44,309 nt of DNA from Rariglobus sp. (GTDB taxonomy: Bacteria > Verrucomicrobiota > Verrucomicrobiia > Opitutales > Opitutaceae). Below are positions 1-17,936 of this stretch, in pieces. Numbering within the stretch: the first letter of the stretch is position 1; each line of letters opens with the position of its first letter. A model generated the notes under the pieces. The model searched no databases. It saw only the letters and a program-made list of their open reading frames with translations, and was not told the DNA's origin. The stretch covers positions 1 to 44,309 of the forward strand of contig JBILJE010000001.1 of NCBI GenBank assembly GCA_044377395.1. The letters run 5' to 3'. The position numbers and the translations under genes are program-made.

Positions 1-1338
1 CTTGGCGGGGGGCAGAGTGCTGAACGGCACGACCAGGGCGTCGAGATCATGTTTTTCGCAAAGCTCGGTGATGGCGGCGCGGAGTTGGGTGCGCAGGCGC
101 TGGCGGGCGAGGTAGTCGGGGCTTTGTTCGGGCGGCGGGAGTAGGAGGGCGTCGTTCATCGCCTTGGCGAACTGATCGGGGCCGACTTTGGTGATCATCT
201 CCTGGATGGTCTTGAACGGAGCGGTGGGGCCGAAGCGGGCGAGGTAGGCGTTTTGGTTGGGGAGCTTTTCGTATTCGGCGGTGCGGCCAATCGTGGCGGT
301 GGCCAGTACCTTCAGATCGAGGCCGGTCTGGACATCCATGACCTGCGCGCCGCCCTTTTTGAGATCGGCGAGGGCCTTTTCGAAGATCGCAATGCCCTCG
401 GCGTGGGCGGGGCCGGAGTGGATCATCTCGCGCAGGACGCCGATGCGCTGGCCGGGAAGCCGGGCGGCGACGACTTGGGCGGGCCAGTCGGGTTGCGGGA
501 AGTGGCCGAAACCGGAGGACGTGATGAGATCCTCGGCGTCCCAGCCGGCTACGACGGAGAGCACCACGGCGACATCGTAAACGCTGCGGGCCATGGGGCC
601 GGCGCGATCCTGGGTGGCGCCGCGCGGCATGATGCCGGCGCGGGAGACGAGACCCTGGGTGGCGACCATGCCGGAGATGCCGGAGTTGGAAGACGGTATG
701 ACGACGGAGCCACCGGTATCGGTGCCGATGCCAACGGCGGCGAACCAGGCGGAGATGGCGGCGCCAGTGCCATTGGAGGAAGTGCCGGGCGTGTAGCCGA
801 GTTTATAGGGATTATGGGTGGCGCCGATGCGGCTGGTGTGGTCGAAGCCATCGCCAAACCAGTTGGCGGTATTAACCTTTGCCAGGATAATGGCGCCAGC
901 GGCCTTGAGGCGGGCGGTGACGGCGGAATCGCGAGCGGGAATTTTATCGCCGAAGGGTTTGAAGCCGGCGGTGGTGGGCATGCCGGCGACATCGAGCAGA
1001 TCTTTCACGACGACGGGGATGCCGTGGAGAGGGCCGCGTGATTTACCGGCGGCGCGTTCGGCGTCGAGGGCCTTGGCCTCGGCGAGGGCGTTGGGGTTGA
1101 GGTGGATGACCGAGTTGATTTTCGGTCCCTGTTGGTCGTAGGCCTCGATGCGGGCGAGGTAGAGGGTAACGAGTTTCTCGGAGGAGAGTTTGCCCGCCTT
1201 GGTGGCGGCCTCGATGTCGGCGAGGGTGGCGGTGGCGAGGTTGAATTCGGCGGCGCGGACTTCGCTTGGAATGACCAATGCCGAATGACCAATGACCAAT
1301 GAGCAGAGCAGGAGGCGGGCGTTATGTGGGAGGCGCAT
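1..1338 (-). CDS. Exported amidase-signature family hydrolase (Ami1), 3' end beyond the window edge; absent from the supplied ORF track
   Basis: Translated by hand from ATG at 1338: MRLPHNARLLLCSLVIGHSALVIPSEVRAAEFNL...GPLHGIPVVVKD...PGTSSNGTG...GTDTGGSVVIP. The frame is open to base 1 and the Lys/cis-Ser/Ser triad motifs are present. Confidence 0.92.
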   Translation of the reverse strand, partial: MRLPHNARLLLCSLVIGHSALVIPSEVRAAEFNLATATLADIEAATKAGKLSSEKLVTLYLARIEAYDQQGPKINSVIHLNPNALAEAKALDAERAAGKSRGPLHGIPVVVKDLLDVAGMPTTAGFKPFGDKIPARDSAVTARLKAAGAIILAKVNTANWFGDGFDHTSRIGATHNPYKLGYTPGTSSNGTGAAISAWFAAVGIGTDTGGSVVIPSSNSGISGMVATQGLVSRAGIMPRGATQDRAGPMARSVYDVAVVLSVVAGWDAEDLITSSGFGHFPQPDWPAQVVAARLPGQRIGVLREMIHSGPAHAEGIAIFEKALADLKKGGAQVMDVQTGLDLKVLATATIGRTAEYEKLPNQNAYLARFGPTAPFKTIQEMITKVGPDQFAKAMNDALLLPPPEQSPDYLARQRLRTQLRAAITELCEKHDLDALVVPFSTLPPAK

Positions 1339-1349
1339 GTTGGATGGTT

Positions 1350-2984
1350 TTAGCGGGTGAATTCGATGAACTCTCCCTCAAGGGCGGGCGTGGAGGCGGG
1401 AAGTTTGCGGTGCTTGGAACCCTGCTCGAAGGCGTAGCCGAGGCCGAGGAGCGGGCCCTCGGTCCAGGGCTTGCCGAGGAACTCAAGACCAACGGGCATG
1501 CCATCGGAGGCGGTGAAGCCGGCGGGGACGGTGAGGCCGGGGAAGCCGGTGGCGGTGCTGATGCGCGTGCCGCGGCCGAGCTTGTCGTAGTTGGCGGCAC
1601 CCTCGACTGCGCCGGCCTGCGGAGCGGCCTCCTCGATGGTGTGCTCGAGGATCGTCTGGTATGGGTAAACGATGACGTCGAGATCGTAGCGTGCGTAGAG
1701 ATCCAGAATGATCTTCTGGAGTGCGGCGCGGTTGCGGGCGAACGCGTCGTAGTCGGAATTCGCGTACATAGGAGGCGCGGACTGTGCGCGATCCAGACCC
1801 TTTTTGAGTTTTCCGAGGGCCTGGCCGGAGGCGATGATGTCGGCGAGGGACTTGATGGAACCATCCGGGTGGCGGTTACCCAGATAGATGGCTAGGGCCT
1901 CGCGACGCTCGGCGGAGGAGGTGGCGACATCCTTGAGCACGGTGAAAAGATCCAGCCCCAGGGGGAGCGGGTCGATGAGGACGGCTCCGGAATCCTTGAG
2001 CACTTTGATGGCGGCGTCGGCCACGGCGCGACCCTCGGCACCGTCGGGCGTATCGCCGAAGTTTTCGCGCAGAACGCCGATGCGGGCGTGTTTAAGGGCG
2101 TCCCTTTTAAGGTAACTCAAGTAGCCCTCAGCGGGGAAATGGCCGAGGCTGGCGGCGGTGAGGAGGTCGCCGGCGTCCATGCCGCCGACGGCGTGGAGGG
2201 TGAGAGCGACATCGGTGACAGTGCGCGCCATGGGACCCGTGCGGTCGAGCAGGAGCGAGCTCGGCAGGACACCGTGGCGGGAGACGAGACCCAGGGTGGG
2301 CGCGAGGCCGACGAGATTGTTTTTCGTCGAAGGATTGCGGATGGAAGAGCCGGTCTCGGTGCCAAGACCGACCTGGGCGAAAACAGCGGCTAGGCCGGCA
2401 CCGGTGCCGGCGGAAGAACCGCCGGGACTCTTGAGTAGATTATAAGGATTCTTGGTTTGACCGCCCAGCCCGCTAGTGCCGGAGGAGCCGCTGTTGAACT
2501 CGTCGAGATTGGCCTTGGCGAGAATGATGGCACCGCCCTCACGGAGACGACGGATGGTGAAAGCGTCGCGCAGGGGAATGTTGCCCGCGAGGCCCTTGTA
2601 GCCGCCGGAAGTCGGGAGGTCGAAGGTATCGTAATTATCCTTGGGGAGGACGGGGATGCCGTGGAGAGGACCGCGGACCTTGCCGGCGGCGCGCTCGGCA
2701 TCGAGGGCGCGGGCTTGCTCAAGAGCCTTGGCGTTAAGGGTGATGATGGAGTTGAGCGTGGGGCCCTTTTGGTCGTAGGCAGCGATGCGGGCCAGGTAGA
2801 GGGAGACGAGTTTTTCGGAGGTCAGAGTCCCCTGAGCCATCGCGAGCTGAAGCTCGGGTATGGTGGCGTCCGCCAGCGCGACGCGGGTTTTAGCGGGTTC
2901 GGCGGCTTGGAGCGCGCTGCCGGAAATGACCAATGACGAATGTCCAACGACCAATGAACAGAGGGCGAGGCGGAGGAGGTGCAT
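1350..2984 (-). CDS. Exported amidase-signature family hydrolase (Ami2)
   Basis: GPLHGIPVLPKD, PGGSSAGTG and GTETGSSIRNP motifs; signal peptide ending ALQA-A. Confidence 0.93.
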   Translation of the reverse strand: MHLLRLALCSLVVGHSSLVISGSALQAAEPAKTRVALADATIPELQLAMAQGTLTSEKLVSLYLARIAAYDQKGPTLNSIITLNAKALEQARALDAERAAGKVRGPLHGIPVLPKDNYDTFDLPTSGGYKGLAGNIPLRDAFTIRRLREGGAIILAKANLDEFNSGSSGTSGLGGQTKNPYNLLKSPGGSSAGTGAGLAAVFAQVGLGTETGSSIRNPSTKNNLVGLAPTLGLVSRHGVLPSSLLLDRTGPMARTVTDVALTLHAVGGMDAGDLLTAASLGHFPAEGYLSYLKRDALKHARIGVLRENFGDTPDGAEGRAVADAAIKVLKDSGAVLIDPLPLGLDLFTVLKDVATSSAERREALAIYLGNRHPDGSIKSLADIIASGQALGKLKKGLDRAQSAPPMYANSDYDAFARNRAALQKIILDLYARYDLDVIVYPYQTILEHTIEEAAPQAGAVEGAANYDKLGRGTRISTATGFPGLTVPAGFTASDGMPVGLEFLGKPWTEGPLLGLGYAFEQGSKHRKLPASTPALEGEFIEFTR

Positions 2985-2990
2985 GTTAAA

Positions 2991-4664
2991 TTAATAAGAG
3001 AACTTCTCGCCGGGGAGGGCGGGCGTGCTCTCCGGTGATTTACGGTGGCGAGTGGCGGCCTCGTAGGCGGAGGCGAACTTGATGAGGGCGGGCTCGCTGT
3101 AAGGACGGCCGAGGAACTCGAGGGCGATGGGGCGGTTCTCGGAGACGAAGCCGGCGGGCACGAGCAGGCCGGGGAAACCGGTTTGGGAACTGAGCGGGTT
3201 GTCAGCGTCCTTGTTGGTCCAGCCGTCCTTGATTTTGGTGGCGGGCAGGGTCTTGAACGGGAAGACCAAGGCGTCGAGCTGGTAGCGGTCCATCAGATCG
3301 ACGACGGCCTTTTGGATCGTCTCGCGGTTTTTGAGTCGGGCGACGTAGGCGGGATTGTTATCGAGATCGGTGACGGCGTTTTGCTTCTCAATATTTTTGA
3401 GGTGCTCGGGGTTTTTAGCGATCATCTCGGTGAGGTCCTTGTAGGGTGAACCGGAGCCGAGGCGGGCGAGGAAAAGATTGGTGGACGCGCGCTTTTCCCA
3501 TTGGGCGACGCGGGTGTCGGAGAGGATGTCGAGAAGTGGGAGACCGGTGGAGATGGGGTCGTAGATGACGGCGCCGGCGGCCTTGAGGTCCTTGATGGCC
3601 GTCTCGATGAGAGCGAGGCCCTCGGCGTGTTGCGGGCCGGAGCGGAACATATCGCGGAGGACGCCGATGCGGGCGCCCTTGAGTCCGTTTTTGGGATCAA
3701 CGAAAGAGAGGAACCCCTCAGGCGGGATCTGTCCGCGGGAAGACATGGTGACGAGATCCTCGGCATCGACGCCTGCGATGACATCCAGAGTGGCGGCGAG
3801 ATCGTAAACGGAGCGGGTCATGGGACCGCCGCGCTCGTGGGTGAAGGCGCTCATGATCATGCCGCCGCGGGAGACGAGGCCGAGGGTTGGCGCGAGACCG
3901 ACGAGATTATTTTCCGACGTGGGGTTGCGGATGGAGACGCCGGTTTCGGAGCCGAGGCCGACGGTGGCGAAGTAGGCGGCGATGCCGGCACCGGTGCCGC
4001 TGGAGGAGGCGCCGGGAACGTAGTCGAGGTTGTAGGGGTTTTTTGTCTGGCCGATGATCGTGCTGGCGCCCCAGTTGGTCTTGGCGAACCAGTCGAGGGT
4101 GTTGACCTTGGCGAGGATGATGGCACCGGCCTCCTTGAAGCGGGTGACGACAAAGGCGTCGCGAACAGGCATGGCGTTCTTGAGGCCGATGAAGCCGCCG
4201 GTGTTGGGCATGCCAACGACATCGAAGAGGTCCTTGAGGATGACGGGCACGCCGTGGAGGGGAGAGCGCGGACCCTTGGTTTTACGCTCGGCGTCGAGAG
4301 CGCGGGCCTCGGCGAGGGCATTTTGGTTGAGAGTGACGACGGTGTTTACGGCCGGCCCCTTTTTGTCGTAGGCCTCAATGCGGGCGAGGTAGAGCGAGAC
4401 GAGTTTTTCGGAAGAAAGAGCCCCGGCGTCGAAGGCGGCGTTGATGTCCGCGATCGTGGCGGTGGCCAGATCGAACTCCGCTGCGCGGAGTTCGCCTGGA
4501 ATAACCAATGCCAAATGAACAATGGCCAATGCGGCGCAGAGGCGACGAATTACAAATGGCCAATGACCAATGACCAATGAGGCGCAGGGGCGACGAATTA
4601 CCAATGGCCAATGACCAATGGCCAATGAGCGGAGCAGGAGGCGGGTGTGGCGGAGGGGGCGCAT
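2991..4664 (-). CDS. Exported amidase-signature family hydrolase (Ami3) with triplicated leader repeat
   Basis: HGVPVILKD, PGASSSGTG, GSETGVSIRNP; leader of about 60 aa with three LxIxHxxxVI units. Confidence 0.93.
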   Translation of the reverse strand: MRPLRHTRLLLRSLAIGHWPLVIRRPCASLVIGHWPFVIRRLCAALAIVHLALVIPGELRAAEFDLATATIADINAAFDAGALSSEKLVSLYLARIEAYDKKGPAVNTVVTLNQNALAEARALDAERKTKGPRSPLHGVPVILKDLFDVVGMPNTGGFIGLKNAMPVRDAFVVTRFKEAGAIILAKVNTLDWFAKTNWGASTIIGQTKNPYNLDYVPGASSSGTGAGIAAYFATVGLGSETGVSIRNPTSENNLVGLAPTLGLVSRGGMIMSAFTHERGGPMTRSVYDLAATLDVIAGVDAEDLVTMSSRGQIPPEGFLSFVDPKNGLKGARIGVLRDMFRSGPQHAEGLALIETAIKDLKAAGAVIYDPISTGLPLLDILSDTRVAQWEKRASTNLFLARLGSGSPYKDLTEMIAKNPEHLKNIEKQNAVTDLDNNPAYVARLKNRETIQKAVVDLMDRYQLDALVFPFKTLPATKIKDGWTNKDADNPLSSQTGFPGLLVPAGFVSENRPIALEFLGRPYSEPALIKFASAYEAATRHRKSPESTPALPGEKFSY

Positions 4665-4682
4665 GGGAGATAGGGAGCGGAA

Positions 4683-5846
4683 TCAATACTGGTCGAAGAC
4701 GCGTTTGATCTCGGCGAGATCGGTGGACTTGGAGAGCGCGAGTTGGAGTAGGATGCGGGCCTTTTCAGGCGGGAGGTTGTCGCCTGGGACGACCTTCGAT
4801 TCGGTGCGGCGAGGGGTCTGCTGGACGCGACCGCCATCGGTGCGGGCGGTTGCGACGATGACCACCCCGGCGGCCTGGGCTTTCTTGATGGCCTCAGTCA
4901 TGCTGTTGGGGATTGAACCCGCGCCGGTGCCGTCGACGACGATACCCTTGACCCCATTGGCGACCATCGCATCCACAATGTAGCCAGGGGTCTCGTGGTA
5001 GGTGTAGATCACCTCGACGGGAGGGAGCGTGGCGGGAAGTTTAGCGACATGGAACTCGGACTGGAAGGTGTGGCGGCGGGTCGGCTCGGTGTAGAATTTG
5101 ACGATGTCGGGGTCGGCGACGCCGATGACGCCGACGTCAATGCCTTGAAAGGTATGCATCCGGTAGGCGCTGGCCTTGGTGACATCGCGGATCGGGAAAA
5201 CATTTTGGTTCATCGCGTGGAGGACGCCCTTAGATGAGGCTTCGGGGGTGGCGGCGACCCGGACGGCGTTGACCATGTTTAGAGGGCCATCGCCGGAGAG
5301 GGCGGTCCAAGGACGCTGTGCGCCGACCATGACGACGGGCTTCTTGATATCCACGGTGAGGCTCAGGAAGTAACCGGTCTCGACCATGATATTGGTGCCA
5401 TGAGTGATGACGACGCCATCAATGGACGGGTCGGCGGCTATTTCCTGGAGACGACGGGCGACCTTGAGCCAGTGGGCGGTATCCATCGTGGACGGTTCGC
5501 CGGGTGCGCGGAGGTCTTCGGGTGTGACCTTGGCGTAAAGGGCGAGGTCGGGCAGATCGGCGATCCACTGCTCGGGATTGAGGCGGGGGGCAACGTAGTT
5601 GGTGACGTTAAGTCGGTCCTTGGCTGTGCCCGAGATGGTGCCGCCGAGAGAGACGAGGAGAACATGTGGCTTGGGCTGAACGCCGGGAGGGATGCGGTCG
5701 GGAATCTCGGCGGCCGAGATTCCCGAAATGACCAATGAACAATGACCAAAGACGAATGCGGCGGTGAGCCGACGAATGACGAAGGACCAATGCCCAATTA
5801 CCGATGACGAGGCAGGGGGGCGAAGATGGGAAAGGGAGGCTTTCAT
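4683..5846 (-). CDS. Exported asparaginase/glutaminase (type II fold) family protein (Asn1), atypical active site
   Basis: SLGGTISG, THGTNIM, GAQRP, DGPLN, RDVTK, DNLPPEKARILL and C-terminal FDQY. Start placed at ATG 5846 (MKASL) rather than the TTG at 5897. Confidence 0.88.
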   Translation of the reverse strand: MKASLSHLRPPASSSVIGHWSFVIRRLTAAFVFGHCSLVISGISAAEIPDRIPPGVQPKPHVLLVSLGGTISGTAKDRLNVTNYVAPRLNPEQWIADLPDLALYAKVTPEDLRAPGEPSTMDTAHWLKVARRLQEIAADPSIDGVVITHGTNIMVETGYFLSLTVDIKKPVVMVGAQRPWTALSGDGPLNMVNAVRVAATPEASSKGVLHAMNQNVFPIRDVTKASAYRMHTFQGIDVGVIGVADPDIVKFYTEPTRRHTFQSEFHVAKLPATLPPVEVIYTYHETPGYIVDAMVANGVKGIVVDGTGAGSIPNSMTEAIKKAQAAGVVIVATARTDGGRVQQTPRRTESKVVPGDNLPPEKARILLQLALSKSTDLAEIKRVFDQY

Positions 5847-5893
5847 GTGGAGCGTGGCGATATGGGAGGTGGCGCTGGTCTGTATTGAGAGAC

Positions 5894-6943
5894 TCAATAT
5901 TCGTTAAAAATGCGCTGTAGCTCGCGGGTCTCGGTTGTCTTGGTGAGGGCGAGGCGGAGGAGTATCCGGGATTTCTGCGGATTGAGGTTGTCGGAAGTGA
6001 CCTGGCCGCGGGCGGCGACGTTGGAGCTGATGGTCACACGACCCGCTCCCTTGCGGTCGCTATGCACTATGACCACACCCTTGGACTGGGCGGCTTGGAT
6101 TGCCTTGGCGAAGGCGGGGGAACCATCGGCGAAAACGATGCCCTTAGCTCCGGCCTCGGTGAGCGCGGCGATGGGGGCGGGGCTGGCCTCTTGGTAGCCG
6201 TAAACGACATCCACCATCGGAAGTGTAGTGAGAGCGGAGATATCAAACTCGGACGCGGCGGTGTGCTTGCTAAGCAGCTTGCGGTAGAAGACGACACGAT
6301 CCGTATCCACGAAACCGATCGGACCGAGCTCGCGGGAGACAAAAGTCTCGACGTGGTAGGTGTGGCCCTTGGTGACGAAGCGGGCTGAGTGGATGGTATC
6401 GTTGAGGACGACGAGAGCACCATGGCCGGCGGCCTCAGGGGTGGCGGCCACGCGGACGGCGTTGTAGAGATTATACGGGCCATCGCGACTGATGGCGGTG
6501 AAGGGCCGCATGGCACCGACCACGACGACGGGTTTGGAGGACTTGACGGTGAGGTGGAGGAAAAAGGCAGTCTCCTCGAGCGTGCCCGTGCCGTGGGTGA
6601 CTACCGCTCCGCTGACCTCAGGGCGGGCGAGCTCTTTGGTGATGGCCTTGGATAAACGAAGAAGTTTCTCGGCATCCATGTTGCCCGAACCGACGTTGGA
6701 AATCTCGGTGACCTCGATGCGGGCTAGGCCTTTGAGTTCGGGAAGATCGGCGAGAAGTTCATCGGGGGTTACGCGACCGGCGTTGTATTCCATGAGCGTG
6801 AGGCGGTGAGCGCCCTTGCTTTGGATGGTTCCGCCGGTGGTGAAGAGTGCAACGAGGGGGAGATTGTCCGCGGCGGCCGTGGAAATGACCAATGACGAAT
6901 GGCCAATGACCAATGAGAGGAGGAGGAGTCGGAGAAGACGCAT
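5894..6943 (-). CDS. Exported asparaginase/glutaminase (type II fold) family protein (Asn2), atypical active site
   Basis: TTGGTIQS, THGTGTLEET, GAMRP, DGPYN, FVTK, DNLNPQKSRILL and C-terminal FNEY; signal peptide ending AAA-D. Confidence 0.9.
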   Translation of the reverse strand: MRLLRLLLLSLVIGHSSLVISTAAADNLPLVALFTTGGTIQSKGAHRLTLMEYNAGRVTPDELLADLPELKGLARIEVTEISNVGSGNMDAEKLLRLSKAITKELARPEVSGAVVTHGTGTLEETAFFLHLTVKSSKPVVVVGAMRPFTAISRDGPYNLYNAVRVAATPEAAGHGALVVLNDTIHSARFVTKGHTYHVETFVSRELGPIGFVDTDRVVFYRKLLSKHTAASEFDISALTTLPMVDVVYGYQEASPAPIAALTEAGAKGIVFADGSPAFAKAIQAAQSKGVVIVHSDRKGAGRVTISSNVAARGQVTSDNLNPQKSRILLRLALTKTTETRELQRIFNEY

Positions 6944-6950
6944 GGTGAAA

Positions 6951-8531
6951 TTAGTAGGAGATTTTTTCGCCGGGGAGGGCGGGCGTGGTGGGCGGTGTGG
7001 CGCGGGCCTTGGAGGCTTGTTCGAAGGCGAAGCCGAGCCCGAAGAGACGCGGCTCGGAGTAGTTCGGGCCCATGAAAGAAAGCGTGACCGGCAGGCCCTC
7101 CGGAGTGACGCCAGCGGGGACGATCAAGTCGGGGAAGCCCGTGATGTTGGCGATGCTGGTGGGACTCGGGGCGCGCGGCTTGGAGTAGTCGGTATCGAGC
7201 CGGACGGCGGGGACCTGGTTGGTCGGATAGATGAAGGCGTCGAGGTTCTGGTTCGCCATGATGCCCTCCAAGATACCGGCGATCATCGCGGGTGCGTGGG
7301 CGGCGGTGGCGAGGTAGACGGGGTCGTCGAGATCATAGCCGGCCTGCTCGTCTTTGAACTGCGCCCAACGGCTCGGGTTGGCGAGTTGGCCGGGCTTGGG
7401 TGTGAACTTTTCGGAGAGGGCGATCAGGTCGGCGAGTGTGCGCGGATAACCGGGTTTGAGGGTGGCGAGGTAGGTGCCGACTTGGGCCTTGAATTCGCCG
7501 GGGCGCATGACCTCGTGCATCGGTTGGCGATCGAGGATGAATTTAGGTAGGGAAATCTCGACGATGGTGGCACCGGCGGCCTCGAGGCGGGCGCGGCTGG
7601 CGGCGACGACCTTTTTAACGCCCTCGTCAATGCCGGCGTAGTCGGCAAGGAGACCGAGACGTGCGCCGCGCAGGGCGTCGGTTTTGAGAAAAACGGTGTA
7701 GTCGGTGTGGTATTTTCCGGCGCTGTTAAACGTGGCGGAGTCGGCGGGATCAACGCCCACCATGGCACCGGTTGACACGGCGACATCGTAAACGCTGCGA
7801 GCCATGGGGCCGCTGGTGTCAAAGGACAGACCGAGGGGAATTATGCCATCGCGGGAGAGCAGGCCGCGGGTGGGTTTGAGAGCGGCGATGCCATTGGCGA
7901 GGGCGGGATTGCGGATGGAGCCGCCGGTGTCGGTGCCGAGGGCGACTGGGGCAAACCAGGCGGCGACGGCGGCACCTGAACCGCCGGAGGAACCAGCCGG
8001 GCCGCGGGCAAGATCGTGGGGGTTGAGCGTTTGGCCACCGAGGGAAGAGAAGCCGTTGGTTTTGGCGCTGGAGGCGAACTCCGAGAGGTTGGCCTTGGCC
8101 AGGATGACGGCGCCGGCAGCGCGGAGTTTTTTGACGATAAAGGCATCGTCGGGCGGGATGGAGCCCTCCAGGAAAACGGAGCCGCCGGTGTTGGGCATAT
8201 CGAAGGTATCGTGATTATCCTTCAGGATGACGGGGATGCCGTGCATGGGGCCGCGGGATTTACCAGCCTTGCGTTCGGCATCGAAGAAACGGGCTTCAGC
8301 GAGCGCCTTCGGGTTGACGAGGATGAGAGCGTTGAGTTTGGGGCCGGCGTTGTCGTAGGCGGCGATGCGTGCCAGCGAGAGCGAGATCAGTTTTTCGGAA
8401 CTAAGGGCTCCGGCGGACATGGCGGCCTGGAGGTCGGCAATGGTGGCCGATTCAAGGGTGAGGGTGGCGGCGCGCAGTGAGTGGACGGGCGCCAGCAGGG
8501 ACAGACCAAGGGCGACGAGGAGAGGGCGCAT
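6951..8531 (-). CDS. Exported amidase-signature family hydrolase (Ami4)
   Basis: HGIPVILKD, PAGSSGGSG and the canonical GTDTGGSIRNP; ordinary Sec-type signal peptide. Confidence 0.93.
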   Translation of the reverse strand: MRPLLVALGLSLLAPVHSLRAATLTLESATIADLQAAMSAGALSSEKLISLSLARIAAYDNAGPKLNALILVNPKALAEARFFDAERKAGKSRGPMHGIPVILKDNHDTFDMPNTGGSVFLEGSIPPDDAFIVKKLRAAGAVILAKANLSEFASSAKTNGFSSLGGQTLNPHDLARGPAGSSGGSGAAVAAWFAPVALGTDTGGSIRNPALANGIAALKPTRGLLSRDGIIPLGLSFDTSGPMARSVYDVAVSTGAMVGVDPADSATFNSAGKYHTDYTVFLKTDALRGARLGLLADYAGIDEGVKKVVAASRARLEAAGATIVEISLPKFILDRQPMHEVMRPGEFKAQVGTYLATLKPGYPRTLADLIALSEKFTPKPGQLANPSRWAQFKDEQAGYDLDDPVYLATAAHAPAMIAGILEGIMANQNLDAFIYPTNQVPAVRLDTDYSKPRAPSPTSIANITGFPDLIVPAGVTPEGLPVTLSFMGPNYSEPRLFGLGFAFEQASKARATPPTTPALPGEKISY

Positions 8532-8584
8532 GGAAAGATGTTTAAGGTGAAAGATTAAGTTGAAGCCGGGCGGACTGGCGGAAC

Positions 8585-8607
8585 ACGGGCAGGAATGCCT
8601 GTGCCAA
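8585..8607 (-). repeat. Single REP-like hairpin (TTGGCACAGGCATTCCTGCCCGT) in the widest inter-amidase gap
   Basis: Stem ACAGGCA-TTCC-TGCCCGT with a TTGG foot, the same architecture as the GTAG/GTGG repeats elsewhere in the window. Only one copy here. Confidence 0.4.
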
Positions 8608-8613
8608 GGGGGC

Positions 8614-10194
8614 TCAGTAGCTGATTTTCTCGCCGGGGAGGGCGGGCGTGCTCGGCGGAAGTTTGCGTACGTCGCCGGCCTTGGCTTCGTAGCCGGCGGC
8701 GAGCTGGATCAACGTGGGCTCACTCCATGGGCGTCCAAGGATTTCGAGGCCAACCGGGTTGCCGTCGGCGGTGAAGCCCATCGGGACGATCATGGCGGGC
8801 AGGCCGGTGACCGGGCTCAGCTGGTTGGGCGTGTATTGGCGCTCGGCGTCATCGCGGGGACCGAGCGGGAGGGGCTTGGTGAGTTTGTGGGGGTAGATAA
8901 GGGCATCGACCTGGTAACGATCCATGAGGTCGATGACGGCCTGGCGCAGGGCGGCTTTGCCCTTGAGTGTGGCGCGGTAGGCGGGGTCGCGGTTGAGGTC
9001 GAAGGGCTTGGCGAGGGCGGCCTTATCGGCGTCTCGCGTGGGGATGTCCTTGTGGCCGAGAAGGAGCTCGGTGGCGTTCTTAAACGGATAACCCGGGCCT
9101 TGGCGCGCGAGGTAGAGATTGATGGCGTGGATCCGCTCGTAGCGCGAAGGCGAGGAGTTCGCCTCGAGGTAATTCGGGAGATCGATGCCGAGGGAAACAG
9201 GGCGAAAAACCTTGGCACCGTTCTTGGCAAACACGGCGATGGCTTTTTCAGCCATGGCGATGATCTCGGGCTCGGGTTTGGGCTTGGTGAAATCGTAGCC
9301 TTCCTTAAGCACACCCAAGCGCATGCCGCTGATGCCGTCGGTCTTCACAAAGCTAACGTAGGGTTGGTCAGGCATCTGGCCGAGGCTCTGGGCAGTCCAA
9401 AGGTCGAAGGCGTCGAAACCGGCCATCACGTCGAGCATGACGGCGAGATCGGCCACGCTGCGTGTCATCGGTCCGCCGCGTTCACCGGTGATGTAGCTCG
9501 CCATCTGGCCGTCGCGGGAGATGAGCCCGGACGTGGTGGAGAGCCCGTAGAGATTGCTGTCACTCGTGGGGGTGCGAATGGAGAAACCGGTCTCGGTGCC
9601 GAGCCCGCCCGCACCCAAGACGGCGGCGACAGCCGCGCCAGTGCCGGAGCTAGACCAGCCGGATGTGCGGGTGAGGTCGTAGGGGTTGCGGGTGTTGCCG
9701 CCGAGCGTGCTGGCGGCAACATGGGGCGGATTGGCAAACCAGTCGGACTGGTTGAGCTTCGCCAGGATGATGGCGCCAGCGTCCTTGAGCTTGGTGATTA
9801 CGAAGGCGTCCTTGGTGGGCTTTACGCCTTTGAGAGGGAGGTAACCGCCAGTGGTGGGCATGTCGACCGTGTCGAATACATCTTTAACCACGATGGGCAC
9901 GCCATGGAGAGGCGAGCGCGGACCCTTGGTTTTGCGCTCGGCGTCAAGGGCCTTGGCCTCGGCGAGGGCGTTGGCGTTGATGTGGAGAACGCTGGCGATC
10001 TTCGGGCCTTGCGAATCATAGGCGGCGATGCGCGCCAGGTAGAGTTGCGTGAGCTTCTCGGATGTCAGAGCTCCGGACTGCATGGCGGCTTGAGTTTCTG
10101 CGAACGTCGCAGTCGCGAGATCAAACTCCGCGGCGTGGGTGGTGCTGGCGAGGGCGATGGCCAGGAACAGGGTACGAACCAAAGAAGGTTTCAT
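8614..10194 (-). CDS. Exported amidase-signature family hydrolase (Ami5)
   Basis: HGVPIVVKD, SGWSSSGTG, GTETGFSIRTP; signal peptide ending THA-A. Confidence 0.93.
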   Translation of the reverse strand: MKPSLVRTLFLAIALASTTHAAEFDLATATFAETQAAMQSGALTSEKLTQLYLARIAAYDSQGPKIASVLHINANALAEAKALDAERKTKGPRSPLHGVPIVVKDVFDTVDMPTTGGYLPLKGVKPTKDAFVITKLKDAGAIILAKLNQSDWFANPPHVAASTLGGNTRNPYDLTRTSGWSSSGTGAAVAAVLGAGGLGTETGFSIRTPTSDSNLYGLSTTSGLISRDGQMASYITGERGGPMTRSVADLAVMLDVMAGFDAFDLWTAQSLGQMPDQPYVSFVKTDGISGMRLGVLKEGYDFTKPKPEPEIIAMAEKAIAVFAKNGAKVFRPVSLGIDLPNYLEANSSPSRYERIHAINLYLARQGPGYPFKNATELLLGHKDIPTRDADKAALAKPFDLNRDPAYRATLKGKAALRQAVIDLMDRYQVDALIYPHKLTKPLPLGPRDDAERQYTPNQLSPVTGLPAMIVPMGFTADGNPVGLEILGRPWSEPTLIQLAAGYEAKAGDVRKLPPSTPALPGEKISY

Positions 10195-10215
10195 AAAAGC
10201 GATGGTAGAGGCCGA

Positions 10216-11826
10216 TTAGTAGCTGAATTTCTCGCCGGGTAAGGGAGGCGTGGATATGGGGAGACGGCGGTGATTGGTGGCCTGCTCGTAGGCGTAACCG
10301 AGGCTGATCAGGCGGAATTCGCTGAACGGACGACCGAGGAATTCGACGCCGACGGGGACGCCGATGGGGGCGTCTTTGGTGGGCGGAGAGAAGCCGCCGG
10401 GGACGGTCAAGGCAGGCAGGCCGGTGCAGGAGGCCATGAAGCCGTTGCGCTCGATCTGCTCGGGATCCTTGGTGGCCGGGACGACGAGGCGGCGCTGGTG
10501 AGGGAAAAACAGCGCGTCGAGTCCGTGGGCATCCATGACGGCGACGAGGCGATCACGGAAAACCACCTGTGCCTTCATACGTTTTTGATATTCGGGGGAG
10601 CGAAGGGCGTCCTCCTTGGCCTCGGAGGATTTCTTGAGCGACTGATAAACTGGCGGATGGGTGTTGCCGGCGGCGGCGACGTATTCGGCGAGGTTTTTGT
10701 AAATGGACTTGGGGCCGTTGCCGGCGAAGTAGGCGTCCATGCCCCATTTGACCTCGAAGTTGCTGACGGAAATCTCGTTGCTGTTTTTGGCGTATTGGCC
10801 GGCCTCGGGAATCTGGAGCGTGACGACCTCGGCACCGGCGGCGCGGATATCGGCGAGGGCGATGGAAGTGACGGCGGTGACCCAGGCGTGCTCAGGGTGG
10901 GAACCATCGCCGACCAGATCGGTGACGAAGCCGATACGGGCTCCCTTCAGTGAATCAGGGATGAGCGCGGCGGCGTAGGTGACGGGGGCCTTGCCCACGC
11001 CGTTCCAAGTGGAGGTATCGGCGGGGTCGAAGCCAACGAGGTAATCCATCATCACGGCGGCGTCGGCGACATAGCGCGTGATCGGACCGGCAGTGTCCTG
11101 CGTGTAGGAGATCGGAATGATGCCGTCGCGCGAGATCAGGCCGAAGGTCGGGCGCAAGCCGACGCCGTTGTTGGCGGAGGCCGGTGAGCGGGTGGATTGG
11201 CCTGTGTCGGTGCCGGTGCCAAGGATGCCAAACGTGGCGGCGATAGCGACTCCGGTGCCGCCGGACGAACCGCCGGGCGTGCGGGTGAGATCGTAGGGGT
11301 TGAGCGTCTGGCCCATCAAGGAGCTGATGGAAACGCCGGAGCGGGCGAGTTCGGAGAGGTTGACCTTGGCGAAGATGATCGCCCCGGCCGCACGCAGGCG
11401 CGCAACCGTGAAAGCGTCATCGGGCGCCATGTTGGCAGTGAGCGCAACCGAGCCCCCGGTGGTGGGCATGTCGTAGGTGTCGTAGTTGTCCTTCAACAAC
11501 ACGGGAATGCCATGGAGTGGCGAGCGGGGGCCCTTGGCCTTGCGCTCGGCGTCGAGGGCGCGTGCGATCTCGATAGCCTTGGGATTGACTGCGATGACGG
11601 AGTTTACCTTCGGCCCCTTCTGGTCGTACGCATCGATACGGGCTTGAAACAAGGTGACAAGTTTCTCGGCGGTGAGCGCGCCGGCGTCGTAGGCTGCGTT
11701 GATGTCGGCAACCGTGGCGGTGGAGAGATCGAACTCCGCGGCGCGGACTTCAACTGGAATGACCAATGCCGAATGACCAATGACCAATGAGGCGAGCAGC
11801 AGGCGGGCGTGGCGTGAAAGACGCAT
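10216..11826 (-). CDS. Exported amidase-signature family hydrolase (Ami6)
   Basis: HGIPVLLKD, PGGSSGGTG, GTDTGQSTRSP; LVIGHSALVI leader. Confidence 0.93.
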   Translation of the reverse strand: MRLSRHARLLLASLVIGHSALVIPVEVRAAEFDLSTATVADINAAYDAGALTAEKLVTLFQARIDAYDQKGPKVNSVIAVNPKAIEIARALDAERKAKGPRSPLHGIPVLLKDNYDTYDMPTTGGSVALTANMAPDDAFTVARLRAAGAIIFAKVNLSELARSGVSISSLMGQTLNPYDLTRTPGGSSGGTGVAIAATFGILGTGTDTGQSTRSPASANNGVGLRPTFGLISRDGIIPISYTQDTAGPITRYVADAAVMMDYLVGFDPADTSTWNGVGKAPVTYAAALIPDSLKGARIGFVTDLVGDGSHPEHAWVTAVTSIALADIRAAGAEVVTLQIPEAGQYAKNSNEISVSNFEVKWGMDAYFAGNGPKSIYKNLAEYVAAAGNTHPPVYQSLKKSSEAKEDALRSPEYQKRMKAQVVFRDRLVAVMDAHGLDALFFPHQRRLVVPATKDPEQIERNGFMASCTGLPALTVPGGFSPPTKDAPIGVPVGVEFLGRPFSEFRLISLGYAYEQATNHRRLPISTPPLPGEKFSY

Positions 11827-11844
11827 GGCGGGTGACGATGGAAG

Positions 11845-13439: not shown

Positions 13440-15029
13440 TTAGTAAGAAAACTTGTCTCCGGGCAGGGCGGGTGTGAGGGCGGCGGGCTTGCGGTTCTTC
13501 GAGGCCTGCTCGTAGGCGTAGGCGAGCTTGAAGAGCACGGGCTCGGAGTAGGGGCGACCGAGGAACTCGACGGATATGGGGCCGTTTTCCTTCACAGTGT
13601 AGCCGGCGGGGACGAGTAACGCGGGAAGACCCGTCACGGAGCTCACAGAGTTGTCTTTCTCGGCTACGTTACGATCGAGGTGGCCCTCGGGGGGGAGCGT
13701 CTTGAACGGATGGACGAGGGCATCGAGTTTATACTTGTCCATGACCTCGACGATGGCGTCGCGGATGGACTCCTGCATGTCGCGGCGGGCGAGGAAGTCG
13801 GCGTGGTGGTCGAGCGAACGGAACTCGGCATAGCCCTTGCGGATGCTCGGCTTCACGAGCTCTCCGTAGGCCACGAGTTCGTCCATGTTCTTGATGACGG
13901 CGTTCGGGCCGAGGCGGCGGAAGTAGAGGTCGTAGGAGAACTGCGCCTCGTGGTAATTCGTGCGCATGCCACCGGATGAATCAAGGACCGTGAACAGATC
14001 AATGCCTAGGGTGACTCCCTCGACGATGATCGCACCCTCGCTCTTCATCTGGGCGATTGCTTTGTCGATGAATGCGGTGCCTTCAGCGTGTTTTTCTCCC
14101 TTGCGGAAGAGGTCTCGGAAGATGCCGATGCGGGCACCCTTGAGTCCGTCTTTCTTGAGGAATTGCGTGTAGGAGCCGTCGGGCATGTTACCCGGCGTGG
14201 TGATGGTGAGAAGATCCTCGGCGTCGAAACCGGCGACGACATCCGTGAGGGCGGCAACGTCATAAACGTTGCGGGCCATTGGGCCGGCGCGCTCCTGCGT
14301 GAACGACGTCATGACCTGGCCGGTGCGCGAGATGAGGCCGCGGGTCGGAGCAAGGCCGGCGAGGGAGTTGTTCGCCGTAGGATTACGAATAGAGACGCCT
14401 GTCTCGGAGCCGAGACCGACGTGGGCGAAGGTGGCGGCCAGCGAGGAGCCGGTGCCGCCTGAGGAGCCGCCGGGCGTGATGTCGGCGTTGTAGGGATTAA
14501 GCGTGCGGCCGAGTACGGTGCTCTGGTCTCCGGGCTTGGGAACGCCGAACCAGTCGCTCATGTTGACCTTGGCAAGGATGATGGCTCCGGCGTCACGGAG
14601 GCGCTTCACCACGGCGGCGTCGTGAATCGGAAGCGAGTTCTTAAGGGGAAGGAAACCGGCGGTGGTGGGCATGTCTTTCGTATCGAAGAGATCCTTCAGC
14701 ACCACAGGAACGCCGTGCAGGGGGGAACGGGGGCCCTTGGCCTTGCGCTCAACGTCGAGTGCGCGAGCGGTCTCAAGCGCCTTGGCGTTGAGCGTGATGA
14801 TCGAATTGATCTTCGGGCCGGCCTGGTCGTAGGCCTCGATGCGTTTCAGGTATAGTCCCACCAGTTTCTCAGAGGTGAGCGGACCGGCGTCCATAGCGGT
14901 TTGAATGTCGGCGACCGTGGCGGTCTCGAGATTAAACTCGGCGGAGTGGACGGGGAGAGCGGCGACAAACAGCGCGAGCGTGAGCGGCAGTGCGCGGATG
15001 GTGTGACTAAGGAAACGAGGTGCGATCAT
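13440..15029 (-). CDS. Exported amidase-signature family hydrolase (Ami8)
   Basis: HGVPVVLKD, PGGSSGGTG, GSETGVSIRNP; signal peptide ending VHS-A. Confidence 0.93.
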   Translation of the reverse strand: MIAPRFLSHTIRALPLTLALFVAALPVHSAEFNLETATVADIQTAMDAGPLTSEKLVGLYLKRIEAYDQAGPKINSIITLNAKALETARALDVERKAKGPRSPLHGVPVVLKDLFDTKDMPTTAGFLPLKNSLPIHDAAVVKRLRDAGAIILAKVNMSDWFGVPKPGDQSTVLGRTLNPYNADITPGGSSGGTGSSLAATFAHVGLGSETGVSIRNPTANNSLAGLAPTRGLISRTGQVMTSFTQERAGPMARNVYDVAALTDVVAGFDAEDLLTITTPGNMPDGSYTQFLKKDGLKGARIGIFRDLFRKGEKHAEGTAFIDKAIAQMKSEGAIIVEGVTLGIDLFTVLDSSGGMRTNYHEAQFSYDLYFRRLGPNAVIKNMDELVAYGELVKPSIRKGYAEFRSLDHHADFLARRDMQESIRDAIVEVMDKYKLDALVHPFKTLPPEGHLDRNVAEKDNSVSSVTGLPALLVPAGYTVKENGPISVEFLGRPYSEPVLFKLAYAYEQASKNRKPAALTPALPGDKFSY

Positions 15030-15203: not shown

Positions 15204-17936
15204 TTAGAACTGCTTCGTGACTGTGATCTGATAGCCGCGTCCGGGCATCGCGGAGACGAGCACATCGCCGGCTCCGGTGCCGTTACGGCCGCGGAAGGAT
15301 TGCACGTCGGTGATGTTCTTCACATCGAGCTTAATACTCCAACTGTTCTTCTTGTAGCCGACGCCGGTGTTGAACGTTAAGGCTTCGGGCAAGGTGACCG
15401 TCTGCAGACGTCCGGAGTGAATTTCCGAGATGTAGTTGCCGCTGCCGCTGATCAGGAAGCCACTGTCGAACGTATACTGGGCCTGAAGACCGTGTGAGGT
15501 GCCCGGGTAGGAGGGGTGCTCGGTCTTTTCGCCCTTAGGGACGCCGATGCTGGCCACGCCTCCCTGGGTGAAGGCTTCGGCCGGGTAGATAACGTTACCG
15601 GATCCGTCCAGCACATCGGTGAAGCCGAGTGGCTCGCCATGAACACGAACGAATTCAGTGCCGCTGAACACGAGCTCGGTCTTCTGGAAGACGGAGAACC
15701 CGCCGACCCAGAAGTTTTTATTTGGTGCGTAACGGAACTCGAATTCGATGCCTTCGCCTTTCACATTACCGAGACCGCCCGCTAGCGGGTTACCCGCAGC
15801 ATCCGCAGTGACGGTGCTGCGTTCCTGACTGTATGCAGCGACAGCTGTGTAGAGTTTTCCGCCGAGGAAGTTTCCTTTGACGCCGACTTCCGTCATGACG
15901 GCCGGGTCATAGGGACCCGCTTTTACCAAGTTGCCGGGCATTGTCAGGTCCGCGCTGTCACTCAGTGCGGTTTGCTGACCAAAGGTGATGTAGGGAATGA
16001 GTCCGAACGGGGCCTTGCCCGAGAGACTGATGGTATATGACTTTCCTAAGTCATTGCCTTCGCCTGAGTTCGAGGCTGCGGCGGCGGCATTTGTGAAGGT
16101 GCCGTCTGTACCGATTGAGTAGAGTCCGGCAGGAACTTCAGTTTCTGCTTGGATGTAATCTAGGCGACCGCCTACGAGTAGGTTGAGCTTTTCGAAGAAC
16201 TCGATGTCGAACATTGAACCAACGCCGCTCTCGGCGTAACTGGTCGTGATGTCACCGCTAAAAGGAGCGCCGCCGTTAAAGTAGTCCGAGTTTTCTTTAG
16301 GCGATACGAATAAATCGTCAGCGGTGCGGATGTTGTTATCAAGCGAGAGATCGGGGCGATCATCGTAGTCCCCAGAGTTGAATCGACGTGAGGCATTCGT
16401 GTAACGGAGATTGACCGAGGAGATGGTGTTAATACCGAGCCAGTCGGGCAATTTGTCGTCGGGGAGTTTGGCCTCCAAAGTGAATTTATCCTCCACAATC
16501 CAGACGTCCTGCTTTTGGTAGAATGGAAGCTCGGAATCTTTAAACTGATCCTGTGAATCAAAAAGAATCTGATTCTTGATCTTCGCGTCCGGGTTCTTGT
16601 CGTTGACGAAGTCGATGTAGGCCAAGCCCAATTTGGCGAAGAGTTCTTTCTCCAGCGCCACGTGGTGGTAGTTAATCTCGGCGGCTTTAACCGTGTCGGG
16701 ATCTTGGACAAATCCTTTTGGAAGGACGTTGAGCAACTTTAAGTTATTACCGTAGCGTGCGGGGTCGGCTGCCATTGTGGCAACGAACGCCGGGTTGGAT
16801 GCGTGAAGAGCGGCAAGAGCGCTATTGGCATTGGCTCCAGCGCCGGTGGGGATAACGGGGTTGGCTAGCGCGGTCGCATACTTGGTGCCCGCGCCAAAAC
16901 GTTGGACAAGCGCGCGGTTGGTCGAACTGGCCGCGCCGAACACGCCGCCTACGGGTGAGCCGAGAACCATTTCCCGCTCGGAGATCTTGCCACTGCCATC
17001 CGTGTCGAGCTTCACCATAGCGCTACCGCCCCAGTAGGTGCCATCGTCGATAAGTTCTTGGGTTACGCGGTTCAGGAAGCCGCCAGCACCTTTGGTCTCT
17101 TGGTAATTAACCCCGGTTTCCATGCGCCATGATTTGTTGATGTCTTTAGAGATGGCACCCTGTATCACTTTCTGTCCGAGCGGCACGTTCACGTAATAAG
17201 AGTCGGAGTCTTCGACCAAACCGAAGAGGTAGTAACCACCGGGATTTTCGTCTTTTTTGCCGAGCTTGAGTGAACCGCCGTAGCCGAACGAGGCGATGCG
17301 CTTGTTCTCGCTGCCAAACGTTAATTCAGCGAAGCCCTTGGACTCGTCCAAGTAAGCGCCGGCGCGGGAGCGGCCGGACTTGGGCGTCATGTTAGTGTAG
17401 CCGCCGATCTTGCCGGAGCCAAAGTAAGCGGGCGCGGGACCGCGAACCACTTCGACTTGGTCGTTGGCGGCAAGTACGGTGCGCGAGTTGCCCTGGGGCT
17501 CGATGCGCTTCATGCCGCGGAAATAGGTGTCCGCGGTCATATTGCGGATATCGATGTTGCCCTGGATGCCCCACCGGGTGGTGGTGTTGGCATTCGGGAC
17601 GATACGCGAGAGATCGGACACCTCGCTGATCGCCATGTTGGCGAGCATCTCGGAGCTGACAACGGAGACGGAACGGGGAGTCTCGACAATCGTCTTGGAG
17701 AAGCCGATCGCGCCCTCGATGGGCTGCGTGGGCAGAATGAAATTCGGGTCTTGGGATTCCTGGACGGAGAACTCTTCGAGGGTGATGATTTCTTCGCCGG
17801 CCTTGGCTGGTGCCGGAGTGGTCTGTGCGTGAAGCAGGCCAGCGGGGGTCATCAAACATAGAGTGGAACTGACGAGCACGCCGCCTTTGCGCAGGCACGA
17901 CGGCGTCCTCGGGATGGGCTTTGTCTTCTTTTTCAT
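15204..17936 (-). CDS. TonB-dependent outer-membrane receptor
   Basis: Signal peptide (LHA-Q), TonB-box-like EIITLEEFSV, plug motifs ETPRSVSVVS and QVEVVRGPAPAYFGSGKIGG, barrel motifs EVGVKG and GEGIEFE, C-terminal GRGYQITVTKQF ending in Phe. Confidence 0.93.
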   Translation of the reverse strand: MKKKTKPIPRTPSCLRKGGVLVSSTLCLMTPAGLLHAQTTPAPAKAGEEIITLEEFSVQESQDPNFILPTQPIEGAIGFSKTIVETPRSVSVVSSEMLANMAISEVSDLSRIVPNANTTTRWGIQGNIDIRNMTADTYFRGMKRIEPQGNSRTVLAANDQVEVVRGPAPAYFGSGKIGGYTNMTPKSGRSRAGAYLDESKGFAELTFGSENKRIASFGYGGSLKLGKKDENPGGYYLFGLVEDSDSYYVNVPLGQKVIQGAISKDINKSWRMETGVNYQETKGAGGFLNRVTQELIDDGTYWGGSAMVKLDTDGSGKISEREMVLGSPVGGVFGAASSTNRALVQRFGAGTKYATALANPVIPTGAGANANSALAALHASNPAFVATMAADPARYGNNLKLLNVLPKGFVQDPDTVKAAEINYHHVALEKELFAKLGLAYIDFVNDKNPDAKIKNQILFDSQDQFKDSELPFYQKQDVWIVEDKFTLEAKLPDDKLPDWLGINTISSVNLRYTNASRRFNSGDYDDRPDLSLDNNIRTADDLFVSPKENSDYFNGGAPFSGDITTSYAESGVGSMFDIEFFEKLNLLVGGRLDYIQAETEVPAGLYSIGTDGTFTNAAAAASNSGEGNDLGKSYTISLSGKAPFGLIPYITFGQQTALSDSADLTMPGNLVKAGPYDPAVMTEVGVKGNFLGGKLYTAVAAYSQERSTVTADAAGNPLAGGLGNVKGEGIEFEFRYAPNKNFWVGGFSVFQKTELVFSGTEFVRVHGEPLGFTDVLDGSGNVIYPAEAFTQGGVASIGVPKGEKTEHPSYPGTSHGLQAQYTFDSGFLISGSGNYISEIHSGRLQTVTLPEALTFNTGVGYKKNSWSIKLDVKNITDVQSFRGRNGTGAGDVLVSAMPGRGYQITVTKQF

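What the first reader, a model, noticed from the sequence alone, without database searches (positions are those of the whole stretch)
1270..11792. A heptamer tandem repeat serves as the signal-peptide core in six genes from two unrelated enzyme folds
Seen: nine 35-bp blocks of exactly five AATGACC-like heptamers. All fall in the leader-coding region of Ami1, Ami2, Ami3, Ami6, Asn1 and Asn2 and all are read in the frame giving LVIGHxxLVI. I saw no such block elsewhere in the window, and Ami4, 5, 7 and 8 use ordinary leaders. The 7-bp period is not a multiple of three, so it points to a DNA-level repeat rather than protein selection alone. A His in the middle of an h-region is unusual. Established: TT(G/T)GTCA is the STRR2 short tandem repeat described in heterocystous cyanobacteria. 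Inference: a repetitive element has been co-opted as a portable export signal, or the block doubles as a protein-binding or RNA element at the 5' end of each cistron.
Basis: partly seen in the sequence, partly recalled or inferred. Interest (0 to 1): 0.85.

Follow-up and report, generated by a model that had tools for sequence, protein, structure and literature searches.

The report
Selfish 7-base repeat inside signal peptides
A 7-base DNA repeat that is scattered through this freshwater bacterium's genome, and that also flanks a small gene of unknown function, sits in frame at the start of 9 of 14 neighbouring amidase and asparaginase genes, where it likely forms part of the export signal; close relatives carry ordinary leaders on the same genes, so it is likely a tolerated, swappable stand-in and not a dedicated system.

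Summary
The nine blocks are real and lie between the ATG and the mature protein of six genes; the cluster continues on contig C71, giving 9 block-bearing genes of 14. The repeat is not special to them: 35 further arrays (3-34 units) lie elsewhere in the genome, mostly between genes, and one inverted pair encloses a four-helix-bundle (TIGR02436) gene. Translation and selection as a hydrophobic core are supported: 32 of 34 leader blocks share one phase and 0 of 32 carry a charged residue, against 26 of 66 intergenic windows. 'Portable export signal' overstates it: no other gene start of 2,180 has the block, orthologues 83-92% identical and close strains have plain leaders, the block ignores enzyme ancestry, and block leaders score weaker than plain ones. 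The capture recurs in five other genomes, mostly in each genome's own repeat variant. Export was not tested. The scan noted cassette arms becoming signal peptides several times on other DNA; my searches found no paper on it.

The parts
1270..1304 (-). Heptamer block in Ami1 leader (SLVIGHSALVI)
2925..2959 (-). Heptamer block in Ami2 leader (SLVVGHSSLVI); a 21-bp shorter allele seen in one contig of run X17
4500..4534 (-). Ami3 leader, block nearest the cleavage site (most worn; predicted h-region)
4548..4582 (-). Ami3 leader, middle block (48-bp unit, Trp kept)
4596..4630 (-). Ami3 leader, first block (48-bp unit, Trp kept)
5727..5761 (-). Asn1 leader, block nearest the cleavage site
5775..5809 (-). 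Asn1 leader, first block; absent in one-block and no-block alleles of close strains
6884..6918 (-). Heptamer block in Asn2 leader (SLVIGHSSLVI)
11758..11792 (-). Heptamer block in Ami6 leader (SLVIGHSALVI)
1..1338 (-). Ami1, amidase PF01425, cut by the window edge; completed on C71
1350..2984 (-). Ami2, amidase PF01425
2991..4664 (-). Ami3, amidase PF01425, 61-residue three-block leader
4683..5846 (-). Asn1, type II-like asparaginase (ATG at 5846), two-block leader
5894..6943 (-). Asn2, type II asparaginase (TIGR00520 above cut-off)
6951..8531 (-). Ami4, amidase with plain leader (internal control)
8614..10194 (-). Ami5, amidase with plain leader (internal control)
10216..11826 (-). Ami6, amidase PF01425
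11845..13413 (-). Ami7, amidase with plain leader
13440..15029 (-). Ami8, amidase with plain leader
15204..17936 (-). TonB-dependent receptor-like gene heading the cluster (Plug domain)

Best explanation
The blocks are solo copies of a genome-wide 7-base repeat, the same repeat that forms the two mirror-image arms around a four-helix-bundle gene in this genome, and they sit in frame in leaders where they likely serve as the second half of the hydrophobic core of a Sec signal peptide. Shown: the repeat family, its arms around the TIGR02436 gene, the in-frame position, and interchange with plain leaders in orthologues. Inferred steps: (1) arms or their remnants tend to lie just before start codons in the TTGGTCA orientation, the only stop-free one, which encodes a hydrophobic LVIGHWS repeat; (2) a roughly five-unit copy that lands or expands inside an existing signal peptide survives only in the phase with L-V-I at both ends and without charged residues; (3) recombination in the tandem cluster, using conserved amidase ends and the block itself as homology, copies whole or half leaders among paralogues and between amidase and asparaginase genes, and also replaces them with plain leaders; (4) the block then wears down (Trp lost next to the cleavage site). 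The agent that moves the repeat is unknown.
For: 49 arrays vs 0 in shuffle, 35 outside the cluster. TIGR02436 gene between convergent arms at C147, hairpin z -7.9; 16 of 32 four-helix-bundle loci have period-7 arrays on both sides vs 2 of 305 small control genes. One strand open, the other closed in all frames. 32 of 34 leader blocks in one phase; 0 of 32 with D/E/K/R vs 26 of 66 intergenic windows with a charge or stop; the GGACATT variant occurs 8 times where silent and 0 times in the two slots where it makes Asp; only 1 of 7 blocks classed as internal in other genes has this phase. Trp kept in 7 of 7 upstream blocks but 6 of 25 last blocks. Block label needs 16 changes for 18 of 130 amidases (shuffle mean 17.1) and 7 for 7 of 60 asparaginases. 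Syntenic orthologues L201 (4 of 4 plain) and L202 (1 of 5 with block), 83-92% identical; Ami2 shares 27 of the first 29 nt with L201 and is 7 codons longer; the leader of L202's Ami1 orthologue resembles this genome's Ami9 leader. Asn1 leader occurs as two-block, one-block (net -54 bp, X16) and replaced by 90 other letters (X10; ends agree in X14, X17). c-region DNA identity 0.80 among block amidases vs 0.48 block-plain. Leader variants match each genome's own arrays in G010, G026, G182, G280. Same phase in a FlgI leader of G010. Leader shuffling in a tandem paralogue cluster is published for S. aureus lpl (PMC2568036, passages).
Against: No experimental or SignalP evidence of export. Block leaders are weaker matches than plain ones: KD11 2.18 vs 2.36, cleavage-anchored matrix median 7.5 vs 17.6, 73rd-99th percentile of all N-termini. 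Synonymous share of changes is not raised overall (0.30 vs 0.27 expected). Rare repeat codons are kept between orthologous blocks more than in mature parts (11 of 44 codons differ), which protein-only selection does not predict. This genome's leader blocks do not match its own intergenic variants (CCTT 3 of 70 vs 147 of 419), so they were not freshly drawn from its arrays. Blocks are not independent, so p-values overstate. G026 has arrays and leader blocks but no TIGR02436 match. The amidase tree is FastTree only.
Confidence: 0.7

Rival explanations
1. The block is also (or mainly) an RNA or DNA recognition site: the heptamer arm 25-70 nt after the start is bound by the four-helix-bundle pentamer or another RNA-binding protein, or pairs in trans with the opposite arm, and tunes translation or stability of these cistrons.
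For: Silent sites keep rare repeat codons; His kept in 28 of 32 blocks although it lowers hydrophobicity; solo arms often lie just before starts (28 of 86 sampled arrays in relatives by a crude rule; 9 vs 2 by orientation in this genome); a similar placement led to a post-transcriptional hypothesis for TAACTGA repeats (PMC4679880, abstract and passages).
Against: No local structure (z -0.55 to 1.47 in 6 of 6 leaders); no partner arm on the mRNA strand in 1-15100; presence is patchy among orthologues and close strains; recent copying explains silent-site retention equally well.
Confidence: 0.15
2. The block is a positively selected, portable export cassette: it gives export to genes that lacked a leader or improves export.
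For: 9 of 14 cluster genes carry it; recurrence in 6 of 35 genomes, across amidase, asparaginase and one FlgI gene; other heptamer families also appear in leaders of the same cluster (CTGGCTT-, GTTGGAT-, TTGAGCG-like).
Against: Orthologues already have plain signal peptides; 0 further gene starts among 2,180 in this genome, about 500 of them signal-like; block leaders score lower than plain; n- and c-regions come from the host gene.
Confidence: 0.08
3. The blocks are untranslated or irrelevant: the real start is the in-block TTG or later, and the enzymes stay in the cytoplasm.
For: Each block holds in-frame TTG codons; solo arms usually sit in 5' untranslated DNA; an orphan leader without ATG lies before Ami10 on C71.
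Against: ATG lies 6-47 nt after the previous stop as in plain paralogues; n-region conserved with block-free L201; all length variants keep frame (21, 48, 54, 63 bp); charged residues absent also in the slots before the second TTG; A-x-A site and mature start match plain paralogues.
Confidence: 0.07

Closest known systems
Bacterial heptamer tandem repeats (cyanobacterial STRR of Mazel et al. 1990, recalled, paper not held; TAACTGA repeats, PMC4679880, abstract and passages read; GGGAATC repeats, PMC4692102, abstract and passages read)
   Same: Period 7, mostly intergenic, close to starts and stops of co-oriented genes, one strand closed in all frames and the other encoding a 7-residue repeat.
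   Different: Here short copies are fixed in predicted signal peptides of conserved enzymes; the passages read report in-gene copies at protein ends or in hypothetical proteins and contain no 'signal peptide'.
ORF-bearing 23S rRNA intervening sequences with S23p / four-helix-bundle gene (TIGR02436, PF05635; Coxiella, PMC4990558, passages read)
   Same: The genome's C147 cassette has a PF05635/TIGR02436 gene inside a long hairpin; the Coxiella element also has heptamer repeats before the ORF.
   Different: The cassette lies between protein genes, not in rRNA; the window blocks are solo arms with no ORF, no partner arm and no hairpin; RNase III cutting untested.
Leader shuffling in tandem paralogue clusters (S. 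aureus lpl, PMC2568036, passages read)
   Same: 5' regions with signal peptides are exchanged among tandem paralogues by recombination.
   Different: Here the exchanged piece holds a dispersed repeat and crosses between two unrelated folds.
In-frame repeat insertions in proteins (Rickettsia palindromic elements; cyanobacterial small dispersed repeats; both recalled, not read)
   Same: Selfish repeats tolerated in frame; this genome has many such inserts, about seven in UvrA.
   Different: Recalled as surface-loop inserts; here the insert takes over part of a functional targeting motif.
Sec/SPI signal peptides of periplasmic type II asparaginases and amidase-signature enzymes
   Same: Basic n-region, uncharged stretch of 15-23 residues, Ala at -1 in 14 of 16 block amidase leaders vs 72 of 99 plain.
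   Different: Gly-His in the core, lower hydrophobicity, and 46-69-residue multi-block leaders.

Membership tests
Cyanobacterial STRR2 repeat | Tandem heptamer matching the STRR2 consensus given in the finding | tested here: met
   Units match TTGGTCA; the consensus itself is recalled, the source paper was not held.
Cyanobacterial STRR2 repeat | Common origin with the cyanobacterial repeats | not tested
   No cyanobacterial genome was examined; a 7-mer match does not show homology.
IVS-like four-helix-bundle cassette | TIGR02436/PF05635 ORF enclosed by inverted arms | tested here: not met
   Met at C147 and C203 but not at the window blocks, which have no such ORF.
IVS-like four-helix-bundle cassette | Arms pair into a long RNA stem | tested here: not met
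   Met at C147 (z -7.9); not in 6 of 6 leaders folded, no partner arm.
IVS-like four-helix-bundle cassette | Excision by RNase III | not testable with these tools
   No RNA holder listed.
Sec/SPI signal peptide | Translated from an upstream start with basic n-region | tested here: met
   Sequence-level only.
Sec/SPI signal peptide | Uncharged hydrophobic h-region and A-x-A cleavage site | tested here: met
   weaker than plain paralogues.
Sec/SPI signal peptide | Directs export and is cleaved | not testable with these tools
   No SignalP, proteomics or reporter assay available.
Phase-variable slippage repeat (on/off switch) | Unit-number changes that shift the frame | tested here: inconclusive
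   Units are degenerate and every length variant seen keeps frame (21, 48, 54, 63 bp); contigs drop rare variants, so frameshifted alleles are not excluded.
Genome-wide portable export tag | Enrichment in leaders of exported proteins across the genome | tested here: not met
   9 of 2,180 gene starts, all in this cluster; 514 crude signal-like genes; genome 86% complete.

The most novel reading that the evidence does not exclude
Heptamer arms of the four-helix-bundle cassette are a recurrent, family-wide factory of signal-peptide cores: several different heptamer families are captured independently in the same Opitutaceae amidase/asparaginase clusters, act as recombination handles that move leaders between unrelated enzymes, and remain binding sites for the Avd-like four-helix-bundle protein, coupling translation or export of a whole periplasmic enzyme battery to that protein.
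Probability: 0.12. Interest if true: 0.85.

Novelty: new variant of a known kind. Interest (0 to 1): 0.5.

Why it matters
It is a clean natural series for how non-coding selfish DNA becomes a protein targeting motif: the same gene exists with zero, one, two or three blocks in near relatives, with plain-leader controls beside it, so the fitness and function of a repeat-derived signal peptide can be measured directly. It also ties the long-unexplained bacterial heptamer repeats to four-helix-bundle genes and gives a concrete target RNA for that protein family. Practical side: gene callers trim these starts (my own model did for 3 of 6 window genes), so such enzymes can be mis-annotated as cytoplasmic.

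Tried and rejected
Frame bias as evidence: rejected, all three frames give the same repeat peptide. RNA hairpin at the leaders: none. Partner arm in the cluster: none. Overall synonymous excess in blocks: not seen. Protein search with Ami6 residues 1-40 found only 3 amidases among 71 candidates, so no unrelated fold by that route. 128 homologue N-termini in 79 named loci: 1 with a period-7 array, 0 of 77 outside Verrucomicrobiota. No RNA holder listed. Plasmid search gave only distant amidases. Joints with short sides were ignored as paralogue cross-matches; the 21-bp deletion rests on one contig of depth 4.4. Papers not held: Elhai 2008, Mazel 1990, Mrazek 2007. Ten literature searches (listings and abstract starts only) showed no paper on repeat-derived bacterial signal peptides; most subscription journals and all supplements were unseen. 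No earlier notes on this genome; sequence look-up gave unrelated notes. A tidy rule that multi-block leaders follow asparaginase genes holds in this genome (3 of 3) but not in G010. Structure and complex prediction were not used, as they cannot test export.
Full report
Observation. The nine blocks are at the stated places on the + strand as AATGACC units; the genes run on the - strand, so the mRNA reads UUGGUCA. A strict rule finds 7 of them among 35 arrays in the genome; a matrix rule finds all 9 among 49 arrays, with 0 in a triplet shuffle. Three blocks have only four clean units. The host genes are amidases (PF01425) and asparaginases (PF00710/PF17763; Asn2 above the type II cut-off, Asn1 just below) behind a TonB-receptor-like gene. 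Contig C71 overlaps the window start by 182 bp with 3 mismatches and adds Ami9, Ami10, Asn3 and Asn4, so the cluster has 14 genes, 9 with blocks. The closest named relatives of Ami3 are an Opitutaceae MAG (86%) and a record titled Akkermansia (90%); the holders are lake and freshwater metagenomes. I infer an Opitutaceae bacterium.

The repeat is a genome-wide family. Outside the cluster there are 35 arrays of 3-34 units, mostly intergenic and often in convergent pairs. Near co-oriented genes the AATGACC strand tends to follow stops (9 vs 5) and the TTGGTCA strand to precede starts (9 vs 2). The genome has 121 period-7 arrays of several families, against 0 in a shuffle and 2-18 for other periods; many are about five units long, so five is the class's usual size. 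One AATGACC pair at C147 encloses a TIGR02436/PF05635 four-helix-bundle gene and folds into a long stem, z -7.9; a second such gene at C203 has arms of another heptamer, the third (C22) none. Of 32 four-helix-bundle loci from this genome and relatives (the best hit per genome), 16 have arrays on both sides, against 2 of 305 small control genes. A three-unit pattern is in 25 of 61 genomes sampled. Heptamers before the S23p ORF and RNase III excision are published for the Coxiella rRNA element (PMC4990558, passages).

Are the blocks translated? Each ATG lies 6-47 nt after the previous stop in the six window genes, no ATG or GTG lies between block and mature start, and the next in-frame starts fall inside the enzyme. 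A perfect array is closed in all frames on one strand and gives LVIGHWS in all frames on the other, so orientation is forced and only phase matters. Of 34 blocks found near starts in six genomes, 32 share one phase by script; one exception is a window shift on an orphan leader, the other sits before a twin-arginine motif. None of the 32 has D, E, K or R, while 26 of 66 five-unit windows from this genome's intergenic arrays would have a charge or stop; a variant at 13.6% in arrays appears 8 times where silent and never where it makes Asp. In other genes of relatives only 1 of 7 blocks classed as internal has this phase, and the UvrA inserts of this genome do carry Asp. Trp is kept in 7 of 7 upstream blocks and 6 of 25 blocks next to the cleavage site; His in 28 of 32. 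These blocks are related by copying, so the counts are descriptive. Against: the synonymous share is ordinary (0.30 vs 0.27), and block leaders are weaker signal-like sequences than plain paralogues (KD11 2.18, n=16, vs 2.36, n=99; matrix median 7.5, n=26, vs 17.6, n=54, and 73rd-99th percentile of 2,180 N-termini). These are home-made measures; SignalP was not available.

Is it portable or required? In this genome the block occurs at 9 of 2,180 gene starts, all in the cluster, though 514 starts pass a crude signal rule (own gene model, genome 86% complete). Among 240 paralogue rows from 35 genomes (one duplicate seen) 26 carry it: G000 9 of 14, G010 6 of 23, G021 1 of 19, G026 3 of 27, G182 4 of 16, G280 3 of 7, and none in G085 (24), G277 (19), G251, G166, G025, G009. 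On trees of the mature enzymes the label needs 16 changes for 18 of 130 amidases (shuffle mean 17.1; FastTree; rows under 37% identity or 400 residues dropped) and 7 for 7 of 60 asparaginases (IQ-TREE): it follows the genome, not the gene. Syntenic orthologues 83-92% identical have plain leaders in 4 of 4 (L201) and 4 of 5 (L202) cases; Ami2 matches L201 in 27 of the first 29 nt and is exactly 7 codons longer, and one contig of run X17 lacks 21 bp there (depth 4.4). For Asn1, a contig of X10 bridges Asn2 to Asn1 with 90 other letters in place of 178, contig ends in X14 and X17 agree, and X16 has a one-block form 54 bp shorter; 30 of the 90 letters were not shown, too few for a full block. So plain and block leaders replace each other on the same gene.

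How it spreads. Block-bearing amidases share c-region DNA (0.80, 10 pairs) more than block-plain (0.48, 20 pairs) or plain-plain (0.60, 6 pairs) at 42-61% mature identity. L202's Ami1 orthologue has a leader start like this genome's Ami9, and its Ami3 a leader like this genome's Ami1. The 48-bp double unit with an Arg-Arg spacer is shared by Ami3 and Asn1 here and by two amidases and Asn1 in G010. An orphan leader without ATG precedes Ami10 and matches the start of P0003. This fits recombination in a tandem cluster, as published for S. aureus lpl genes (PMC2568036, passages). Separate captures are likely: leaders use the variant of their own genome in G280 (15 of 15 units vs 23 of 73), G026, G182 and G010, and other heptamer families appear in leaders of G025, G026 and G182. 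This genome is the exception: its leader units resemble G010's pool, not its own, so they are older or imported. In 86 arrays from hand-picked solo sites of four relatives plus G092, 28 lay just before an ATG (at least three of these are really internal), 26 had no coding frame behind, 9 were in the first 50 codons, 7 internal, 6 unclear, 10 outside the size range; one is a FlgI leader in the same phase, a third fold.

RNA role. Six leaders fold no better than shuffles and have no partner arm. But orthologous blocks differ at 11 of 44 conserved codons although built of rare codons that usually differ in mature parts; recent copying or a nucleotide constraint could explain this, and I cannot separate them. 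Heptamers before starts were proposed as post-transcriptional sites in Beggiatoaceae (PMC4679880, abstract and passages).

Verdict. A real case of repeat DNA likely doing duty as part of a signal peptide, amplified by paralogue shuffling, tolerated more than favoured. Each ingredient is known; the combination was not in the papers my ten searches listed. I reached the cassette link, which showed that the scan had noted arms becoming signal peptides at least six times in other genomes; those notes are unchecked and are not counted as support. What this locus adds is the allele series, the tree test and the selection signature. Interest 0.5.

Noticed in passing
window 1-17936 and G000:C71:2374-8523: A battery of 10 amidases and 4 asparaginases, all with leaders, behind a TonB-receptor-like gene; similar batteries with 10-17 amidase matches in 5 of 60 relatives (G009, G010, G021, G025, G026). 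Substrates unknown.
   Followed up: partly
G000:C278:5673-9959 (L053): UvrA carries about seven in-frame heptamer inserts of several families, two of them the finding's repeat; UvrA of G182 has one too.
   Followed up: partly
G000 genome-wide: The AGCTCCC-type heptamer lies mostly inside genes as APSSQLL-like linkers (9 of 10 arrays of that consensus), whereas ACTCGCT- and AACATCC-type arrays are nearly all intergenic, in pairs after stops and before starts.
   Followed up: partly
G000:C71:6366-6483 (L052): Orphan leader with a block but no ATG, in frame and directly upstream of Ami10's own leader; matches the N-terminus of P0003.
   Followed up: yes
G182 L105/L106 and G026 L031/L033: TTGAGCG-type heptamer blocks extend n-regions (LSVKRSALNVERS-like) of Sec and twin-arginine leaders; CTGGCTT-type blocks form h-regions (LLASGLWLL).
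   Followed up: partly
L091 (G092), L105/L106 (G182): Leaders such as ALVLGHCAFAL and ALVIAQYALIL look like blocks worn below detection, suggesting that old captures decay into ordinary signal peptides.
   Followed up: no
window 27400-27450, 29056-29094, 34473-34518, 34591-34623: Hexamer tandem arrays (CTCCTA, CGAGAA, ACTCGT) between genes, some as facing pairs; possibly a period-6 counterpart of the arms.
   Followed up: no
window 33201-33386 (-): 61-residue Lys/Ala/Val-rich repeat protein, histone-like by composition; no Pfam match.
   Followed up: partly
window 42249-43745 (-), 26788-27372 (+), 39779-40486 (-), 32620-32958 (+): Well-coded ORFs with no Pfam match.
   Followed up: no
L044, L050 (G009), L046 (G027): A separate subfamily of about 690-residue amidases in tandem, one 1,295-residue ORF.
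   Followed up: no
L202: Record titled Akkermansia holds a cluster 83-92% identical to this Opitutaceae-like one; the label may be off or the cluster transferred.
   Followed up: no
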